Virus record (IMG/VR): IMGVR_UViG_3300028586_000750
Direction: 5' to 3' (one strand)
DNA: 64,000 bases
DNA from: a virus
The translations under genes were made by a program, and so were the position numbers. The notes beneath the pieces were generated by a model, which was given only the letters and a program-made list of their open reading frames with translations, was not told the DNA's origin and ran no database searches. Numbering within the stretch: the stretch's first letter is position 1; each line of letters starts with the position of its first letter. This document shows, in pieces, positions 4,427-51,050 of the stretch.

Positions 4427-4654
4427 TTAAGCCTTTTCCGTATCAAACGAAATTAAGTGTTCCCATGAAATACGCAAACGCTTAGTTTTATTACTAGTGT
4501 CCGCATACTCAAAAATCATATAATGCGGGTTTTCTGAGTTAAGCAACTTAATAAAAGGTGGCACTTTAACTAGGCGAGCAGCCAAAGGCGTCAAAACAAT
4601 GTTTACCTTATAAATATTGTTCGTTCGGACAACATCTTCCATATATTCAGTCAT
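4427..4654 (-). CDS. Hypothetical protein translationally coupled to tyrS
   Basis: Start overlaps tyrS stop (TAATG). Confidence 0.65.
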   Translation of the reverse strand: MTEYMEDVVRTNNIYKVNIVLTPLAARLVKVPPFIKLLNSENPHYMIFEYADTSNKTKRLRISWEHLISFDTEKA

Positions 4655-5874
4655 TATAGATTTCCTTTTTCAACAAGAACAAAACGGTTTTTACCTCTTT
4701 TAAGAAGAACCGTTCCTTCAAGAGTAACATCACCAACAGCTTTCAACCCATTAATAGAGATACCACCATCTTTAATCAAACGACGAGCATCAGACAAACT
4801 AGAAGCAAGTTCAGCGTCAACCAAAGTTTTTGTCAAAACGTTACCAGAAGCAACAACACCAATTTCATGACCCAAAGCAGCTACACCTTGTTCATCAAGC
4901 TCAGTGAAAGCTTTCTTGCCAAAAAGGACATTGGTTACATCGCGTACAGTGTTAGCTTTAACTTCACCATGAACAAGCTTAGTTACCTCAAAGGCCAAAG
5001 CTTTCTGGGCTGCACGTTTGAATGGAGCATCTGCAACTTCTTTTTCAAGTGCTTCAATATCTTCACGAGGAAGAAGAGTAAAGATTTTAAGAAAATCAAT
5101 TACACTATCATCTGCGGTGTTAAGCCAGAACTGGAAGAACTCAAAGACGCTAGTCTTGTTCTCATCAAGCCAAATAGCACCGTTCTCTGTTTTACCAAAC
5201 TTTTTACCTGTTGCTTTGTTAACAACAAGGGGTGTGGTAAAGACATGAGCTTCTTGCCCGTCCATACGGCGAATAAGACTTGCACCGGCTGTGCTGTTAC
5301 CCCATTGGTCGCTACCGCAAAGCTGTAATGTTACACCTTTCTCACGGAATAAGTGTAGGAAGTCGTATGCCTGAATTAGAGAGTAACTGAACTCTGCAAA
5401 ACTAATACCAGTTGTCTCTAGACGTGACTGGACAAAACCTCGGGAAATCATTTGCGCTGTAGGAACATTCTTACCTACAGTCATAAGGAACTCAATGAAA
5501 TTGATATCTTTGAACCAGTCATGGTTATCAACAATTTCAAAATCTTGTCCAGCAAAAATCTGCTTGTATTGCTCAACAATAGCTGCTTTGTTACTGTTAA
5601 TTACATCACGTGTTTTGAGGTTACGTTCATCTTTTTTACCATCAGGGTCACCAATAAGACCTGTGGCTCCACCGACTAGAAGAACAGCTTCATGGCCATG
5701 GTTAATGAAATGCTTAACGAGCATTGCTGAGGCAAGATTACCAATGGTCATGGAATCAGCACTAGGGTCCACACCCCAGTAGAACTTACGAGAACCTTCA
5801 TCTAGGCGCGTAATATCGTCTAAAGTAGACTGATTGGCTAATCCTCGCCAAATCAGTTCTTCTGAAAGTTTCAT
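4654..5874 (-). CDS. tyrS: Tyrosyl-tRNA synthetase
   Basis: YWGVDPSADS-TIGN (HIGH variant), GGATGLIGDP, QAYDF, GSDQWGN, KFGKT (KMSKS variant), C-terminal S4-like domain. Confidence 0.95.
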   Translation of the reverse strand: MKLSEELIWRGLANQSTLDDITRLDEGSRKFYWGVDPSADSMTIGNLASAMLVKHFINHGHEAVLLVGGATGLIGDPDGKKDERNLKTRDVINSNKAAIVEQYKQIFAGQDFEIVDNHDWFKDINFIEFLMTVGKNVPTAQMISRGFVQSRLETTGISFAEFSYSLIQAYDFLHLFREKGVTLQLCGSDQWGNSTAGASLIRRMDGQEAHVFTTPLVVNKATGKKFGKTENGAIWLDENKTSVFEFFQFWLNTADDSVIDFLKIFTLLPREDIEALEKEVADAPFKRAAQKALAFEVTKLVHGEVKANTVRDVTNVLFGKKAFTELDEQGVAALGHEIGVVASGNVLTKTLVDAELASSLSDARRLIKDGGISINGLKAVGDVTLEGTVLLKRGKNRFVLVEKGNL

Positions 5875-19412: not shown

Positions 19413-19979
19413 TTAGCGCTTCGGGGTGGCCTCATTGATGACCTTGTGCTGGTCGGTCGTGTAAATGACACGCTTGACACCGGCCTCTTCCAGAAGCTTC
19501 GTGCAGTTCTCGCAGGGGCGCGAGAAACGCGGTCGGCCCTGCTTGTCCACGCGAGCAACGTAGATGGTAGCGCCACGAGGGTCAGGAACGCGGCTCAGCG
19601 CGTCAGCCTCCGCGTGAGTGCTGATGTTGGGGTCGTACTCAGTGCTCTCGCTGACGGTCGTGTGACGGCTGCGGTAGCGGTTAATGCCCACCGAAAGGAC
19701 GCGGCCACCACGAACAACAACTGCACCGTGCTGACGGTTAACGTCGGAAGTCTCAGCAACCTTAGTGGCAAGGTCAAGGAAGGAACGCTGGCTGCGCGAA
19801 AGAGGGGTGTGGGGAAGCTCGAACGTACCAAGACGGTTCGCGTTTCCCTTGAACAGTCGGTTCCTCGGCGGGGCGCACATTTCCTGAAAAGACATTTCCG
19901 TGTAACTTTCTCTCATAAATTTAACGGTTGATACTCTTAGTGTAGCAAGCTGTACTGAGGAATGCAACTTCGCAAGCAA
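19413..19979 (-). CDS. Zn-dependent cytidine/dCMP/TadA-superfamily deaminase
   Basis: HGAVVV..G, HAEADAL and SRPCENC motifs; true start probably downstream of 19979; GC-rich relative to the window. Confidence 0.88.
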   Translation of the reverse strand: MLAKLHSSVQLATLRVSTVKFMRESYTEMSFQEMCAPPRNRLFKGNANRLGTFELPHTPLSRSQRSFLDLATKVAETSDVNRQHGAVVVRGGRVLSVGINRYRSRHTTVSESTEYDPNISTHAEADALSRVPDPRGATIYVARVDKQGRPRFSRPCENCTKLLEEAGVKRVIYTTDQHKVINEATPKR

Positions 19980-23425: not shown

Positions 23426-23902
23426 TTAGAAATCTAGTCCAACAGCTAGATAGATAGTGAACCCACCTGAACGCCAGAACATGAAAGAACCAGTTCCTAC
23501 GCCTTCTGCCATATGAACCCATTCCCAACCATCAATGTCATCGTTGCTTGCATGACCACGGTAGTCGCCGTGCTGCTTGTGACGAAGGATGACAGGAACC
23601 CCGTAGTCTGCGGGAAGGTCAGCAGCAGACTTGACCTCAGCGCCAATGTTTTCGTCAGCTTCAAACGTAACAACATCACGGGTGGCGTCAACAAGCTCTA
23701 GAGTATCAACAAGGTGACCTTCTGGGGTGAGCAGAGGAACAAAGGTATCGCTTTCTCCCCCGTAGATATATCCAATACGCCCATCCTTCTCGGTGATGTC
23801 AGTTGTGGACTGTGCGAAGAGCGCAGGGAAACCGGCTACGGCAAAAATTGCTTTGTCGCCAGCTTTAAGTTCGGACGGGTTTGCGATGTGAATGATAGCC
23901 AT
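23426..23902 (-). CDS. Hypothetical protein
   Basis: 158-aa ORF with GC-richer codons. Confidence 0.65.
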   Translation of the reverse strand: MAIIHIANPSELKAGDKAIFAVAGFPALFAQSTTDITEKDGRIGYIYGGESDTFVPLLTPEGHLVDTLELVDATRDVVTFEADENIGAEVKSAADLPADYGVPVILRHKQHGDYRGHASNDDIDGWEWVHMAEGVGTGSFMFWRSGGFTIYLAVGLDF

Positions 23903-24305
23903 TAGTTGCTCCTTATTTAGGTAGTTTCACTGTATCACAGTAAATACAGGTTAGCAATGTGAAAAGACAAAGCGGGGTGCCTCATATTTAGAGGCACCCC
24001 GCTAGTAAGTTATTCGATTTCTACTTTAGTAGCTGGTTCTACGTGAAGGTCACCATGCTCTGTTTTAATTCGCACGTGACCGGGAATTGCTTTGGATGGC
24101 TCTGCATCTTCAATGGCACGGGAAAGATTTCCCTGTGAGCCAATGATGAAGTCTCCACCTTTTACCTCGTCGTATCTAACAATCATAAGTTTTCTCTTCT
24201 CTCAGGTTAAATAAAAAACGCTACAGCCCTATACCGTAATGTGCATATAGGACTGTAGCGGTGTATAGCTTCTAATTCCTTCACAAGGAAACTATACGCA
24301 AAATT

Positions 24306-25130: not shown

Positions 25131-25199
25131 TTCCTTCACATAGAATTGAACTATGGACATTCCAAAAAGTTGGACGCTCTACCACTGAGCTATGAAGGA
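25131..25199 (-). ncRNA. tRNA-like RNA with 4-nt anticodon loop
   Basis: Perfect acceptor TCCTTCA/TGAAGGA, D and T arms; arm TCCAA-CTTT-TTGGA. Confidence 0.75.
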
Positions 25200-28445: not shown

Positions 28446-28826
28446 TTAGTTTGCAACCTGCGTATCAGTTGTCGTGTACTCTTCCATTTTTTGAGTAAGA
28501 CGAGAAAGTTCAGGTCCACTGTGAAAACTGTAAGCCTGGAAAATCCTGTCTAGGTACTCTTTATGCTTACTATCAAGTTTACTAGTGTCACCTACAGGCC
28601 ATGTAGTTAGAATATATGCGCCTTTGTGATAAGACATAAGTTCCGTATAGCGTGGACCTGTTTTGGTATGTGTGAAATATTCAGAGAATAGTGGCACATA
28701 AAGTGCACGCTGATAAAGAGTGTCAGCTAGGAAACAAAGTTTATGCAACTTCATTGAAGACATACCCTGGTCATTACGCTTATGCGAAATGAAATACTGA
28801 GCTACATCTTGGATTGATAACGTCAT
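28446..28826 (-). CDS. Panacea/SocA (DUF4065)-like antitoxin domain protein
   Basis: DVAQYF, MKLHKLCFLA, LFSE.F....GP, LSRLT match the family pattern. Confidence 0.75.
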   Translation of the reverse strand: MTLSIQDVAQYFISHKRNDQGMSSMKLHKLCFLADTLYQRALYVPLFSEYFTHTKTGPRYTELMSYHKGAYILTTWPVGDTSKLDSKHKEYLDRIFQAYSFHSGPELSRLTQKMEEYTTTDTQVAN

Positions 28827-29890: not shown

Positions 29891-29972
29891 TGCTCCCGGT
29901 GGGACTTGAACCCACACTTCTTGCGAAACTTGATTTTAAGTCAAGCGTGTCTGCCAATTCCACCACAAGAGC
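29891..29972 (-). tRNA. tRNA-Leu(TAA)
   Basis: Class II cloverleaf; same sequence as 37579..37660. Confidence 0.92.
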
Positions 29973-30104: not shown

Positions 30105-30178
30105 TGGACCTGATGGGACTCGAACCCACAACATTCTGCGTGCAAGGCAGACGCTCTACCAATTGGAGCTACAAGCCC
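30105..30178 (-). tRNA. tRNA-Ala(TGC)
   Basis: G3-U70, A73, loop CT-TGC-AC. Confidence 0.92.
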
Positions 30179-31890: not shown

Positions 31891-31918
31891 TTTTTACATG
31901 TTCATCATAAGCCTATGT

Positions 31919-32006
31919 TGGCACTTTAGGTGGGATTTGAACCCACATGTCCTTTCGGACAAGGCACCTTTGAAAGCGCCTCTCGTCTGCATTCCGCCAC
32001 TAAAGT
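31919..32006 (-). tRNA. Atypical Leu-body tRNA with 10-nt anticodon loop (CTTTCAAAGG), G73 and encoded CCA
   Basis: Body closely resembles Leu(CAA) 21494..21576; perfect acceptor ACTTTAG/CTAAAGT. Confidence 0.7.
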
Positions 32007-32209
32007 ATGTTGGTAAGGGTCTTTAAGCAAGCCAATGTGGCCCACCTTTGTTATAACAATTACAAAACCTCGCAATGAGAATGTAACTGCTACAAATATA
32101 CTAGAAGTTTGCGCTTCTATATATTTCACCTTAGGCTATTTCTCCGCACCCATAGAGGGCCGGTGCATCATAACCAATTCCGATTACCGCAAAATAAACG
32201 AAACTTTTG

Positions 32210-32294
32210 TGCTCCCAAGGGGACTTGAACCCCTACGCCATTTCTGGCACTAGCTTCTTAGACTAGCGTGTCTGCCAAATTCCACCACAAGAGC
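32210..32294 (-). tRNA. tRNA-Leu(AAG)
   Basis: Class II cloverleaf; stem CTAGT/GCTAG; loop CT-AAG-AA. Confidence 0.88.
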
Positions 32295-32478
32295 ATGTGG
32301 CCACTACTTTCTTTCAACAGTGCGCACTGCCCAACCATCTTCTGCGTTTACTTGTAAGCAGTGGACCCCCAAGTAAACAGTGGTTGTATCAATTTGAAAA
32401 CTCGTTGGTAAGGATTTTACCCCTACGTTAGGAATCGAACCTACCCTGCAAGAACCTGCATTTTCAAATCTCAATAAT

Positions 32479-32574
32479 TTCGGTAAACCGGACTCGAACC
32501 GGCGCTCTCGCACCCCTAACTGGGTGGCGCATCAAAGCCTACTAACTGAGTTAGCACAGATGCTTTTTTACCAA
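32479..32574 (-). ncRNA. tRNA-like RNA with greatly enlarged D-arm region
   Basis: Acceptor TTGGTAA/TTACCGA; T arm GCCGG-TTCGAGT-CCGGT; internal helices GCATC/GATGC and CACCC/GGGTG. Confidence 0.5.
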
Positions 32575-32869
32575 AGCTTAGTATGTAAAGTTCAAAAGCA
32601 ACACATGCCTAGCTGTTACGCTACCAAGGGAATCGAACCCTTGTTTTGCTTTACTGGTCCTGTTAACCAATCAACTACTTTGCGAATGCAGGCGGTTATT
32701 AACCTCAGCAAACTCCCGAATAGGCGGGAATGGTTTCTTCTTGTCACTCACTAAAACGTAACAAGTTTACTTTTCAAACAGAACCGTAAGTTATCTCTAT
32801 TGTGTTGTTAATATCTATCATAGCACAGTATTTTTCTCTATGCAACTTCTTTTTTGAAGAAGTTTTAGT

Positions 32870-32989
32870 TGGAGCGGGTGGGATTTGAACCCACAAAATT
32901 TTACTTATCCGTGTAACGTCACACCATGTCTCACTTCATTAGCCCGTGAATAAATCGTGGCTTAAAGGAAAGACTTTGACTGCCGCCCC
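32870..32989 (-). ncRNA. 120-nt RNA with alanine-identity acceptor and T arm (tmRNA-TLD-like)
   Basis: GGGGCGG/CCGCTCC-A with G3-U70; T arm GTGGG-TTCAAAT-CCCAC; no D or anticodon cloverleaf. Confidence 0.65.
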
Positions 32990-33065
32990 ATATTTTCTTG
33001 TTACTAGAACAATACTACTCCAAATTCTTCTTGTCAAGTTCATTTACAAACTTTCTTAGAAAACT

Positions 33066-33278
33066 TTAACGCTGTTCCTTATTATGGATTTGAACTCGCT
33101 CTTCCTGGTTCTGAGCAGCAATACGAGCTTGTACACGATTAGAACTATGCTGACGCTTAATATTACTGCGCGCCCAAACACCTTTACCTCGTCCAAATCT
33201 TTTCTCTTCCTGGTGTTTATACCAAGTTTCACGAAGATATTCATGGCGTGGCGGAATACGACGATGCGTTCTACTCAT
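33066..33278 (-). CDS. Small basic protein (MSRT.R type)
   Basis: 70-aa Arg/Lys-rich ORF. Confidence 0.6.
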   Translation of the reverse strand: MSRTHRRIPPRHEYLRETWYKHQEEKRFGRGKGVWARSNIKRQHSSNRVQARIAAQNQEERVQIHNKEQR

Positions 33279-33521
33279 ATCCGTTCCTTAGCTGCTAATA
33301 CTTATTATCTAATATTGTAACATATTAAACATAAACTTAATCATACCTTTTTGGTATGCCTACAATCAGTATAAACAACCAGAAGGGTAAAAGTCAACTA
33401 GTAATTTATCTTAACAACTAAACTATTGATAACATTAGATAACAAAACTGCATGTAATATTGTACCCCATTTTTGGGTACATCTGTAAACACGATATATA
33501 CGCCAAAGAGGGTAATATATT

Positions 33522-34751
33522 ATGTTTTTAAACTTCCAACACAAACTGAAAGAAACACGAGAACAAGAATCTGGTTTTACATTAATTGAACTTATGATTG
33601 TTGTAGTCATTATTGGCATCCTAGCTGCTGTAGCAATTCCTGTTTTCGCTACACAACAAAAAGAAGGCATTAAAGGGACAGTTAAATCTGACGTTCGTAA
33701 CACAACCGGTAACGTTGTACAATTTTTAACCAAAACACCAACAGCATCAGATGTTTCCGGAACAAAGATTGTGTCTTCCGCTGACAATGTTATCGCTGTA
33801 AGTGGGGACTGGCAAGACTACACAGTGCGTGGTAAAAACGCCGCTGTTAATGACTGGTGTTGGGTTTACTCTTCCAAAACAGGTAAAGCAGTTGAAGGCA
33901 CCGGCGTCAACTGTGACTTCACAATGGCTCCTGTGACCACAACACCAGGAACAACTACACCTGGTACTGGTGGAACAATTATTCCTGGTACTGGCGCTGC
34001 TAGCCTTATTGCTACTGCTGCGTTAGAGCAACCTATCTTTGGTCGTGATTATGAAACAAAAGTTGTTGCTAGTGACCCTAACGTTACTTTCACCGCAGAT
34101 GGGTTACCTAATGGACTTGGAATGAACACAGGTGGCACCATTTCAGGTATCCCTACCACTAAAGGTGACTTCACAGTAACTGTAACTGCTGCTCTTGATA
34201 AAGCTAAAGAAACTAAAGATTTCAACTTGACTGTTGATACTATTGCTAACTTCACAGAAAGCTTTGATGATGCAGATTACGCTAAACGAGGTATTGGTGC
34301 ATCAGGACTTGTGTATGGAGGTAAAAGTTATAGTGGACCTTATGCGACACCTTCACCTGTTGGAACACCAATAGGTGGCGCTTCCAAAATATCAACATTC
34401 GGTGTAACTGGCGGAAACCTTGTATTAGCAGGCGATAAAGCAGTTAATTCAAACTCAACCATTAATGCTGTTGTTAACACTCTTAGCATTAATGGTTTAG
34501 AACCTAACGCAACATATGATTTCTCTATTTACATTGACAGTAATATGACAGGACGCTATTCAGGTAGTACAAACATTACCGAATTTAAGATTGCCGGTGC
34601 AGCAAAAACTTATACAGGTCCAGGTAATTACACTTGGTCAGGTAAAGCTGATACTAACGGTAAAGTAACAGTGGATATTAGAATGGCCTGTCAAAATTCT
34701 GTAACACCAATGGCTTTCAAAATGGATAACTTCTCTGGTTTAAAGAAGTAA
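33522..34751 (+). CDS. Type IV pilin-like protein with putative Ig domain and C-terminal beta domain
   Basis: G-FTLIELMIVVVIIGILAAVAIP prepilin motif; GLP.GL....GTISG.PT..G.FTVTVTA Ig motif. Confidence 0.88.
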   Translation: MFLNFQHKLKETREQESGFTLIELMIVVVIIGILAAVAIPVFATQQKEGIKGTVKSDVRNTTGNVVQFLTKTPTASDVSGTKIVSSADNVIAVSGDWQDYTVRGKNAAVNDWCWVYSSKTGKAVEGTGVNCDFTMAPVTTTPGTTTPGTGGTIIPGTGAASLIATAALEQPIFGRDYETKVVASDPNVTFTADGLPNGLGMNTGGTISGIPTTKGDFTVTVTAALDKAKETKDFNLTVDTIANFTESFDDADYAKRGIGASGLVYGGKSYSGPYATPSPVGTPIGGASKISTFGVTGGNLVLAGDKAVNSNSTINAVVNTLSINGLEPNATYDFSIYIDSNMTGRYSGSTNITEFKIAGAAKTYTGPGNYTWSGKADTNGKVTVDIRMACQNSVTPMAFKMDNFSGLKK

Positions 34752-37010: not shown

Positions 37011-37092
37011 TGCTCCCGGTGGGACTTGAACCCACACTTCTTGCGAAACTTGATTTTGAGTCAAGCGTGTCTGCCAATTCCACCACAAGAGC
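37011..37092 (-). tRNA. tRNA-Leu(CAA)
   Basis: Same as the Leu(TAA) copies except position 34. Confidence 0.92.
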
Positions 37093-37578: not shown

Positions 37579-37660
37579 TGCTCCCGGTGGGACTTGAACC
37601 CACACTTCTTGCGAAACTTGATTTTAAGTCAAGCGTGTCTGCCAATTCCACCACAAGAGC
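37579..37660 (-). tRNA. tRNA-Leu(TAA)
   Basis: Class II cloverleaf. Confidence 0.92.
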
Positions 37661-50651: not shown

Positions 50652-51050
50652 GTGGCGCATTATTTTATTAAAAAGATACTCACAAAGTTTTTAATGGCCG
50701 ATAATGGAGGCATGTCAAACTTACTTTTAATTGATTACCGTCGTTCATTCCTTGATGGACGTGACCATATCCAAGCTCATGATAGTAAAACAGCTATTGA
50801 ACTTCTTACTAAACATGAAGGTAAGATTAATAGCATCTGGATGGATTATGATATGGGTCCAGGTGATGACATTAAAATTGTTCTTAATTTCCTTACTTTA
50901 CGCGCTAAGTTAGGTATGGCTTATCCTGTTAAAGTTATCAACGTTCATGCGCCAAGTGAGATTGGTTGGCAAGTTATTAGTAGCAAACTTAAACCAGCTA
51001 AATATATTGTCCGTAGAGAAACAATTCGTGATACTTTAGGTGCATATTAA
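50652..51050 (+). CDS. Cyclic-phosphate-processing receiver-like domain protein
   Basis: LLIDYRR, SIWMDYDMG, INVHA..G resemble the LDD.R / SLDHDLG / VHS.N..G pattern. Confidence 0.6.
   Translation: MAHYFIKKILTKFLMADNGGMSNLLLIDYRRSFLDGRDHIQAHDSKTAIELLTKHEGKINSIWMDYDMGPGDDIKIVLNFLTLRAKLGMAYPVKVINVHAPSEIGWQVISSKLKPAKYIVRRETIRDTLGAY

What the first reader, a model, noticed from the sequence alone, without database searches (positions are those of the whole stretch)
32870..32989. 120-nt mini-tmRNA-like RNA: alanine acceptor with no tag reading frame
Seen: GGGGCGG/CCGCUCC-A with G3-U70, a canonical T arm, no D stem, and a helix (GUCU-UUC/GAAG-UG-AGAC) leaving where tmRNA P2 does, but no room for pseudoknots or an MLD. 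Established: G3-U70 plus A73 suffices for AlaRS, and the tmRNA TLD binds SmpB. Inference: a TLD-only decoy of SmpB/trans-translation, half of a two-piece tmRNA, or an Ala donor.
Basis: partly seen in the sequence, partly recalled or inferred. Interest (0 to 1): 0.72.

Follow-up and report, generated by a model that had tools for sequence, protein, structure and literature searches.

The report
Alanine-type tRNA mimic, not true mini-tmRNA
A giant phage-like DNA element from leaf litter carries a real, transcribed 120-base RNA gene that keeps only the alanine-accepting top half of a tRNA. It looks like the tRNA-like end of the ribosome-rescue RNA (tmRNA) but lacks tmRNA's own hallmarks, so it is best read as one more of the element's non-decoding tRNA look-alikes, with its job unproven.

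Summary
On the minus strand (32989..32870) lies a 120-nt RNA with a 7-bp GGGGCGG/CCGCUCC acceptor stem (G3:U70, A73), a canonical T arm, no D arm and no anticodon loop. It has a good promoter 20 nt upstream, and contigs of two of three metatranscriptomes cover it.

The tmRNA reading is only partly supported. The Rfam tmRNA model gives 19.6 bits (cut-off 47), aligning only the acceptor and T arms. With the same model an ordinary phage tRNA-Ala scores 32.8 bits. Genuine phage TLD-only (tRNA-like domain only) mini-tmRNAs, including the known one of mycobacteriophage DS6A, score 43-65 bits.

The conserved GG..UCGAC loop and the GAC linker of tmRNA are missing. The fold is a four-way, cloverleaf-like junction with a tetraloop stub where the anticodon arm would be. 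The T arm is identical (19/19) to that of a neighbouring tRNA look-alike. There is no tag frame and no two-piece topology.

Only near-identical strains were found, so comparative support is thin: two stem changes, both G:C to G:U.

This scan has already found many phage TLD-only mini-tmRNAs on other DNA; this RNA is an atypical relative of that theme. Best reading: a non-decoding, probably alanine-chargeable tRNA-derived mimic. SmpB decoy remains a minority possibility.

The parts
32870..32989 (-). 120-nt RNA gene (nt 1 = 32989, nt 120 = 32870, the A73 discriminator). No CCA is encoded; the trailer is ACUAAAAC.
   Evidence: Sequence; fold z = -2.86; RNA-library contigs 32301-32986 and 32299-32924 plus 32909-33202.
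32983..32989 (-). Acceptor stem, 5' strand GGGGCGG (nt 1-7).
   Evidence: Pairs with nt 113-119; G3:U70 wobble.
32871..32877 (-). Acceptor stem, 3' strand CCGCUCC (nt 113-119).
   Evidence: In strain L026, C114 is U, giving G6:U.
32975..32982 (-). 8-nt single-stranded connector CAGUCAAA (nt 8-15), at the position of the tRNA 8-9 connector and D arm or of the tmRNA D-loop analogue. It lacks the GG..UCGAC signature.
   Evidence: Alignment to the tmRNA model compared with DS6A.
32928..32974 (-). Long irregular hairpin (nt 16-62, 16 pairs, 9-nt apical loop AUUUAUUCA).
   Evidence: In L026, C30 is U, giving U:G.
32911..32924 (-). Short hairpin (nt 66-79): 5 bp closed by an ACGU tetraloop. It is a stub at the position of an anticodon arm.
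   Evidence: It has the same design as the neighbouring look-alike at 25131-25199.
32895..32910 (-). 16-nt A/U-rich linker (nt 80-95). Its first 8 nt are complementary to apical-loop nt 35-42, a possible pseudoknot. Its 3' part varies between strains.
   Evidence: Duplex energy -5.9 kcal/mol, reached by 64 of 5000 shuffles. Strain differences at 32895-32899.
32878..32894 (-). T arm GUGGG-UUCAAAU-CCCAC (nt 96-112).
   Evidence: Nt 95-113 are 19/19 identical to the T arm of the look-alike at 31919-32006 and 18/19 to the array's tRNA-Leu genes.
33009..33037 (-). Promoter-like site TTGACA-17 nt-TATTGT. The -10 hexamer ends 20 nt upstream of nt 1.
   Evidence: The placement resembles the site before tRNA-Met (24991-24962). 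It is a consensus match only.
32844..32864 (-). A/U-rich hairpin just after the gene (AACUUCUU...AAGAAGUU) with no U tract. It is not a classical terminator, and RNA contigs run through it.
   Evidence: Sequence; RNA contigs continue to about 32300.
33069..33278 (-). Upstream 70-aa very basic ORF of no known family. It may be co-transcribed with the RNA. Whether it belongs to the system is unknown.
   Evidence: One homologue at 61% identity lies on a 617-kb contig. RNA contig 32909-33202 bridges the ORF end and the RNA 5' part. No family was found.

Best explanation
The RNA is a real, expressed gene for a non-decoding, tRNA-derived RNA. It belongs to the set of tRNA look-alikes that this ~0.79-Mb phage-like element keeps inside its tRNA gene array.

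It retains an intact alanine-type acceptor/T-arm minihelix. The D arm is replaced by a long hairpin, the anticodon arm by a tetraloop stub, and the variable region by a 16-nt linker that may pair with the long hairpin's loop.

Shown: the gene, its fold, its promoter-like site, its presence in RNA libraries, and its failure to meet tmRNA-specific criteria.

Inferred from established knowledge (RNase P, the CCA-adding enzyme and AlaRS all recognise the acceptor/T minihelix, and G3:U70 is the main alanine determinant): the transcript is cut out like a tRNA, receives CCA and can be charged with alanine by the host AlaRS.

Without an anticodon it cannot read codons. It would therefore act as a mimic or decoy for some factor that reads the top half or the aminoacyl end of tRNA-Ala or tmRNA. 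Which factor is not known.
For: - The structure is present and folds better than shuffles; the strain variant folds identically.
- Both stem substitutions between strains keep pairing, and the other three differences lie in the single-stranded linker.
- A promoter-like site sits 20 nt upstream.
- RNA-library contigs cover the gene in two of three metatranscriptomes. The stretch 33325-33495 is uncovered in all three, although the DNA run covers it.
- The T arm is 19/19 identical to the neighbouring look-alike and 18/19 to the array's tRNA-Leu genes. This points to an origin or homogenisation inside the tRNA array.
- The topology is cloverleaf-like, with three arms inside the acceptor stem. The tetraloop stub resembles neighbour 25131-25199.
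- The tmRNA model score of 19.6 bits is below that of a plain phage tRNA-Ala (32.8) and far below real TLD-only RNAs at 43.2, 47.6 and 65.1 bits.
- ARAGORN finds no tmRNA or tRNA.
Against: - No divergent homologue could be fetched, so there is no compensatory covariation.
- Between the two strains the RNA differs at 4.2% of positions against 2.9% for the surrounding 1.07 kb, so no extra constraint is visible.
- Contigs cannot prove mature ends, strand, CCA addition or abundance, and the third RNA library has no contig over the gene.
- A more divergent relative in a straw metagenome loses similarity just downstream of the gene, so the locus may be evolutionarily labile.
- Alanylation and any binding partner are untested.
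- An origin from a tmRNA TLD followed by heavy remodelling cannot be excluded.
Confidence: 0.5

Rival explanations
1. It is a functional TLD-only mini-tmRNA. Like the RNA of mycobacteriophage DS6A, it would be alanylated, bind the host SmpB (and EF-Tu), and titrate SmpB or occupy stalled ribosomes. That would block or redirect trans-translation during infection.
For: - It has a GGGG start, G3:U70, A73, a T arm, no D stem and no anticodon.
- tmRNA is the best-scoring Rfam clan member, with a local E-value of 1e-5.
- Longer phage forms exist: a 107-nt RNA in the L068 record passes the tmRNA cut-off.
Against: - 19.6 bits is below an ordinary tRNA-Ala control (32.8) and below DS6A (43.2) and the other phage minis (47.6, 65.1).
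- The conserved uGG..CGAC loop and the G-ACG linker that DS6A keeps are missing here.
- An extra hairpin and a 16-nt linker separate the long helix from the T arm, giving a four-way junction.
- The T arm is shared with the array's own tRNAs.
- No SmpB gene was found among the 60 ORFs of 100 aa or more scanned in the window. This covers only 8% of the element.
Confidence: 0.2
2. It is a decaying or neutral by-product of tRNA gene turnover in the array: a rearranged tRNA-Ala-like pseudogene that is transcribed only because it lies within a tRNA transcription unit.
For: - It is no more conserved than its flanks between strains.
- The strain variant folds less stably: -33.3 kcal/mol, z = -1.1.
- No homologue was found beyond near-identical strains in any collection searched.
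- A divergent relative differs in this neighbourhood.
Against: - All 33 predicted pairs are intact in both strains, and the acceptor identity set is perfect.
- It has its own well-placed promoter-like site.
- The 47-nt hairpin and the loop-linker complementarity are not what random decay of a 76-nt tRNA would produce.
Confidence: 0.15
3. It is a dedicated alanine donor. The RNA would be charged by AlaRS but kept out of decoding, and would supply Ala to a non-ribosomal aminoacyl transferase of the Fem/MurM, MprF or L/F-transferase type.
For: It has the alanine identity set and cannot decode. Non-proteinogenic tRNAs dedicated to cell-wall synthesis are established in staphylococci (general knowledge).
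Against: No such transferase was seen among the 60 ORFs scanned in the window. Nothing in the sequence points to this role.
Confidence: 0.05
4. It is a true tmRNA with a very short tag frame, or one half of a two-piece tmRNA.
For: Frame 1 is open from nt 1 to a tandem UAA-UGA at nt 49-54, and the one strain change inside it (C30U) is synonymous.
Against: - That frame begins inside the acceptor stem and runs through a paired hairpin.
- An open run of 16 codons is expected in about half of random frames.
- There are no pseudoknots and no ARAGORN tag call, even at relaxed settings.
- Both acceptor strands lie on one continuous RNA in the standard order, and the permuted-tmRNA model RF04321 gives no hit.
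Confidence: 0.02

Closest known systems
'TLD-only' (CDS-less) tmRNA of mycobacteriophage DS6A (JN698994.1, 28478-28560; PMC4131195, PMC11915505)
   Same: Both are encoded by a phage or phage-like element. Both have a GGGGC.GCA start, G3:U70, A73, a T arm, no D stem, no anticodon, no tag frame, no pseudoknots and no encoded CCA.
   Different: DS6A is 83 nt, a three-way junction, and keeps the uGG..CGAC loop and the G-ACG linker next to the T arm; it scores 43.2 bits. The window RNA is 120 nt, lacks both motifs, has an extra hairpin and a 16-nt linker, and scores 19.6 bits.
Non-decoding tRNA-like stable RNAs of phage tRNA clusters (T4 species 1 and 2 RNAs, T5 tRNA-region RNAs; from general knowledge and earlier notes of this scan), and this element's own look-alikes
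   Same: It lies in a tRNA gene array, keeps the acceptor and T arms, has the anticodon loop abolished, and its function is unknown. The tetraloop stub resembles the neighbour at 25131-25199, and the T arm is shared with 31919-32006.
   Different: This RNA has also lost the D arm. It is the only look-alike in the window with the alanine G3:U70 identity.
Canonical tRNA-Ala, including the element's own tRNA-Ala(UGC) at 30105-30178
   Same: G3:U70, A73 and a similar T arm. The single-family model R1 ranks that tRNA-Ala as the next-best hit in the window, at 24.7 bits.
   Different: It has no D arm and no 7-nt anticodon loop. It is 120 nt, not 74. Neither ARAGORN nor the Rfam tRNA model recognises it.
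CDS-less organellar tmRNAs (jakobid and oomycete mitochondria, RF02544; ~65-bp plastid forms; PMC11915505)
   Same: An alanine-type tRNA-like domain without a tag reading frame.
   Different: Those are usually permuted genes of organelles with a nucleus-encoded SmpB. Here the gene has the standard order and sits in a phage-like element, and no hit outranked the weak RF00023 match.

Membership tests
tmRNA / TLD-only tmRNA (RF00023) | Acceptor stem starting GGGG with G3:U70 and an A discriminator | tested here: met
   GGGGCGG/CCGCUCC plus A. This feature is shared with every tRNA-Ala, so it does not discriminate.
tmRNA / TLD-only tmRNA (RF00023) | T arm with a 7-nt T loop stacked under the acceptor stem | tested here: met
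   GUGGG-UUCAAAU-CCCAC. It is also identical to T arms of neighbouring tRNA(-like) genes.
tmRNA / TLD-only tmRNA (RF00023) | Stem-less D-loop analogue with the conserved GG..UUCGAC sequence | tested here: not met
   The connector is CAGUCAAA. The model aligns only 'UC', at low posterior probability. DS6A keeps uGG..CGAC.
tmRNA / TLD-only tmRNA (RF00023) | One helix (P2) leaves the domain and returns through a short G(G)AC linker directly next to the T arm (three-way junction) | tested here: not met
   The long hairpin is followed by a second hairpin and a 16-nt linker, giving three arms inside the acceptor stem.
tmRNA / TLD-only tmRNA (RF00023) | Covariance-model score at or near the gathering score (47 bits) and above non-tmRNA controls | tested here: not met
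   19.6 bits. Controls: phage tRNA-Ala(GGC) 32.8, DS6A 43.2, phage minis 47.6 and 65.1 bits.
tmRNA (full length) | mRNA-like domain with a tag frame, plus pseudoknots | tested here: not met
   ARAGORN -m at relaxed thresholds finds nothing. The three frames were read. A 120-nt RNA leaves no room.
tmRNA / TLD-only tmRNA | Binds SmpB; alanylated by AlaRS | not testable with these tools
   No RNA-protein tool is available, and no host or whole genome is held.
Two-piece (permuted) tmRNA (RF04321, RF01849-51) | Permuted gene order: the 3' acceptor/T-arm piece lies upstream of the 5' acceptor/coding piece | tested here: not met
   Both acceptor strands are in the standard 5'-to-3' order on one RNA. 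RF04321 gives no hit at E<=10.
Canonical tRNA (RF00005) | Cloverleaf with a D arm and a 7-nt anticodon loop | tested here: not met
   Not called by ARAGORN, with or without introns, nor by Rfam at gathering score.
Non-decoding tRNA look-alikes of this element (informal class) | Lies in the tRNA array, is transcribed, has intact acceptor and T arms, and has the anticodon loop replaced | tested here: met

The most novel reading that the evidence does not exclude
The RNA is a new kind of alanine-charged, anticodon-less tRNA mimic. Its architecture would be its own: a four-way junction locked by a pseudoknot between the hairpin loop and the linker. It would work without SmpB, possibly with the conserved 70-aa basic protein encoded just upstream. 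Together they would form a minimal element-encoded particle that enters or blocks stalled ribosomes, or that soaks up a host defence enzyme attacking the aminoacyl/CCA end of tRNAs.
Probability: 0.07. Interest if true: 0.8.

Novelty: new variant of a known kind. Interest (0 to 1): 0.4.

Why it matters
Phage RNAs that copy only the alanine-accepting end of tmRNA are known from DS6A, and this scan keeps finding them. They are thought to interfere with ribosome rescue.

This case marks the edge of that class. Its alanine identity and T arm are perfect, yet its core is neither tmRNA nor tRNA, and it sits among a dozen other anticodon-less tRNA look-alikes in a 0.79-Mb element.

Two points follow. 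First, G3:U70 plus a T arm is not evidence of tmRNA ancestry, because a plain tRNA-Ala scores higher on the tmRNA model. Second, giant elements may build chargeable, non-decoding tRNA mimics from their own tRNA genes.

If the RNA is alanylated and has a specific partner, it would be a handle on what the whole set of look-alikes does.

Tried and rejected
Searches that found nothing useful:
- Whole-genome searches: no genome is held for this window.
The 617-kb relative that carries the homologue of the upstream ORF could therefore not be fetched.
- blastn of the locus against phages and plasmids: no match.
- Exact and degenerate RNA patterns in viral contigs: no homologue. The seven hits are unrelated tRNAs or tRNA-like genes.
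- Neighbour proteins gave no related loci in viral contigs, metagenome contigs or genome contigs.
- The second metagenome scan gave 18 hits. One is a true homologue, the 97% strain L026. Sixteen are ordinary tRNA-Ala genes with a chance upstream GGGGCGGCAGTC. Two are RNAs with tmRNA-like 3' ends whose matched 5' GGGG strand does not pair with the 3' acceptor strand.
- The second genome scan gave one chance hit beside a tRNA-Ser of a Saccharibacteria MAG.
- The single-family covariance model R1 over the window and 99 loci found only generic acceptor/T-arm matches of 29 bits or less.

Readings considered and dropped:
- Tag reading frame: rejected.
- tRNA with an intron: rejected, because there is no D arm and ARAGORN -i finds nothing.
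- attP-type fragment of a tmRNA or tRNA gene: rejected, because both acceptor strands are present.
- The upstream 70-aa protein recalled ArfA through a GKG motif (from memory). Pfam, PDB-sequence and Atlas searches gave nothing, so this stays a lead only.

Limits of the read data:
- The third RNA library has no contig over the gene, and contigs cannot give ends, strand or level.

Full report
**What is there**

Read on the minus strand, window 32989..32870 is a 120-nt sequence. It has these parts:
- A 7-bp acceptor stem, GGGGCGG/CCGCUCC, with G3:U70, followed by an unpaired A. The next bases are ACU, so CCA is not encoded.
- An 8-nt connector (CAGUCAAA).
- A long irregular hairpin (nt 16-62).
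- A 5-bp hairpin closed by an ACGU tetraloop (nt 66-79).
- A 16-nt A/U-rich single strand (nt 80-95).
- A canonical T arm (GUGGG-UUCAAAU-CCCAC).

The minimum-free-energy and centroid folds agree (-38.2 kcal/mol). Only 2 of 200 dinucleotide shuffles fold as well (z = -2.86). It omitted the second hairpin and the long linker, and these matter for the interpretation.

**Is it a gene?**

- A TTGACA-17-TATTGT site lies at 33037..33009, ending 20 nt before nt 1. A comparable site precedes tRNA-Met in the same array.
- Logan contigs of three leaf-litter metatranscriptomes were laid on 31900-33600. One library has a 686-nt contig covering 32301-32986 without a mismatch; it stops 3 nt from the predicted 5' end.
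- A second library has contigs 32299-32924 and 32909-33202. The latter bridges the upstream small ORF and the 5' part of the RNA.
- The third library covers the flanks but not the gene.
- None of the three covers 33325-33495, which the DNA run covers. The RNA-library signal is therefore unlikely to be plain DNA carry-over.
- Contigs cannot show strand, ends or level.
- All three libraries have contigs stopping at 32290-32301, beside the 5' end of tRNA-Leu(AAG) at 32294. This is a weak hint of a long precursor cut by RNase P.

**The replicon**

- The window is a dense array of tRNA genes and tRNA look-alikes on the minus strand: 15 ARAGORN calls, three with impossible anticodon loops, and 16 Rfam tRNA hits.
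- The protein cluster of the upstream ORF occurs on a contig of 791,407 bp.
- Earlier notes of this scan describe the replicon as a ~0.79-Mb circular phage-like or plasmid-like element from plant litter with many non-decoding tRNA look-alikes. Those notes disagree on whether it is a phage, a plasmid or a small chromosome, and I could not settle this.
- Window ORFs include TyrRS, thymidine kinase, adenylate kinase, a deaminase, an HNH nuclease, pilins and glycosidases.
- No SmpB or AlaRS was seen among the 60 ORFs of 100 aa or more that I scanned.

**Is it a tmRNA?**

- ARAGORN finds no tmRNA or tRNA, even at relaxed thresholds, with introns allowed or in tmRNA mode.
- Rfam at gathering thresholds finds nothing.
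- At permissive thresholds the best hit is tmRNA RF00023 at 19.6 bits (cut-off 47). The alignment uses only the acceptor and T arms and deletes the conserved GGaUUCGAC and GGACG blocks.
- The literature gives a precedent. [quoted passage not shown]
- I located the DS6A RNA at JN698994.1 28478-28560. It scores 43.2 bits, keeps uGG..CGAC and the G-ACG linker, and is a three-way junction.
- As controls, the same model was run on three IMG/VR phage records. An 80-nt TLD-only RNA scores 65.1 bits, a 107-nt one scores 47.6, and an ordinary tRNA-Ala(GGC) scores 32.8.

The window RNA therefore scores lower on the tmRNA model than a plain tRNA-Ala. The hit reflects alanine-type acceptor and T arms, not tmRNA-specific signal.

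**Where does it come from?**

- Nt 95-113 (T arm with flanks) are 19/19 identical to the T arm of the look-alike at 31919-32006, 1 kb downstream. They are 18/19 identical to three tRNA-Leu genes of the array.
- The overall topology is that of a cloverleaf: acceptor stem, arm, arm, variable region, T arm. The arm at the anticodon position is a tetraloop stub, as in the neighbour at 25131-25199.
- Among the look-alikes in the window, only this one and the genuine tRNA-Ala(UGC) have G3:U70.
- The simplest history is a tRNA gene of the array, remodelled or homogenised by gene conversion, rather than a captured tmRNA end. A heavily remodelled TLD cannot be excluded.

**Comparative evidence is thin**

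- Nothing related was found in phages, plasmids or IMG/VR.
- The upstream 70-aa ORF has one homologue (61% identity) on a 617-kb contig.
- A degenerate RNA pattern found one true homologue in metagenome contigs, L026. It is a 1073-nt contig, 97.2% identical over its whole length.
- Within the RNA there are five differences. C30U and C114U each turn a G:C pair into G:U. The other three, including a 1-nt deletion, lie in the 3' part of the linker. All 33 pairs survive and the variant has the same fold, though it is less stable.
- The RNA is no more conserved than its surroundings: 4.2% against 2.9% differences.
- A straw-metagenome strain is identical over the RNA. A more divergent relative in the same run loses similarity beyond 32764.
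- A covariance model of the two sequences finds only generic tRNA-like matches of 29 bits or less in the window and 99 phage loci.

**Other features**

- The apical loop (nt 35-42) and the start of the linker (nt 80-87) can form eight consecutive pairs. The energy is -5.9 kcal/mol, reached by 64 of 5000 composition-matched shuffles. This was found post hoc among about ten segment pairs. It is a possible pseudoknot, unchanged in L026 and so untested by variation.
- No credible tag frame exists. The only long open frame starts inside the acceptor stem and runs through the hairpin.

**Context from IMG/VR**

Among 119 loci it gave 18 distinct sequences with a perfect 7-bp acceptor stem and at least four T-stem pairs, where about six would be expected by chance. 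Their cores are diverse: some have a D arm plus an insert, and some are true TLD-only forms. Long alanine-type, non-decoding RNAs thus recur in phages, but none is alignable to this one.

**Mechanism**

Established knowledge says that RNase P, the CCA-adding enzyme and AlaRS act on acceptor/T-arm minihelices, and that G3:U70 (with A73 and G2:C71) is the main determinant of alanine identity. By inference, the RNA can be matured and charged with alanine. It cannot decode.

My best reading (0.5) is a chargeable, non-decoding tRNA-derived mimic that belongs to the element's set of look-alikes, with its target unknown. Rivals:
- SmpB/trans-translation decoy like DS6A: 0.2. It is weakened by the missing TLD signature.
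- Decaying relic: 0.15.
- Alanine donor for a non-ribosomal transferase: 0.05.
- Tagged or two-piece tmRNA: 0.02.

**Novelty**

TLD-only phage RNAs are published, and this scan has already reported many on other genomes. Non-decoding tRNA-like RNAs of phage tRNA clusters are also long known. This RNA is an atypical variant between the two kinds. It is supported as a gene but not yet as a conserved family.

Noticed in passing
window 33069-33278 (-): A 70-aa, very basic ORF lies directly upstream of the RNA's promoter. It is 61% identical to a 68-aa protein on a 617-kb JGI contig. Pfam, PDB-sequence, Atlas and phage tblastn searches found nothing. An RNA-library contig (32909-33202) bridges it and the RNA's 5' part.
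   Followed up: partly
window 32878-32896 vs 31929-31947, 29898-29916, 37018-37036, 37586-37604: T arms of different tRNA and tRNA-like genes in the array are identical or differ by 1 nt over 19 nt, although the rest of the genes differ. This suggests gene conversion or recent duplication within the array.
   Followed up: partly
window 32290-32301: Contigs from three independent metatranscriptomes all stop within 12 nt of each other, beside the 5' end of tRNA-Leu(AAG) (32294), while DNA contigs continue. This hints at a long precursor cleaved by RNase P.
   Followed up: no
window 32477-32764 (straw metagenome run X4, record 21): A ~91%-identical relative replaces 236 nt (32477-32712, which holds two tRNA look-alikes) with 123 other letters. 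It loses similarity beyond 32764, so the look-alike content of the array differs between relatives.
   Followed up: no
L068 13690-13793 (record G003 24183-24289) and L125 (record G002 23775-23854): These are unannotated phage TLD-only mini-tmRNAs in IMG/VR that pass the Rfam tmRNA cut-off (47.6 and 65.1 bits). The first is an unusually long form of about 107 nt. ARAGORN calls neither.
   Followed up: partly
L003 4388-4493, L004 9747-9851, L005 10582-10703, L007 4149-4254: Four IMG/VR contigs share a 105-122-nt tRNA-shaped gene. It has a GGGGAGU (GGGGGGU in L003) / ACUCCCC acceptor stem, a GUC...GAC D arm and a long internal insert. These have G3:C70, so they are not alanine type.
   Followed up: no
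window 50652-51050 (+), 28446-28826 (-): One ORF has a cREC_REC (cyclic-phosphate processing receiver) domain and another a SocA/Panacea antitoxin-like domain, both just below Pfam's cut-offs. They sit in an element otherwise rich in tRNA-related genes (TyrRS 4654-5874, deaminase 19413-19979).
   Followed up: no
L029 2141-2215: An ordinary phage tRNA-Ala(GGC) scores 32.8 bits on the Rfam tmRNA model when clan competition is not applied. This is a useful baseline: weak RF00023 hits below about 35 bits carry no tmRNA-specific information.
   Followed up: yes
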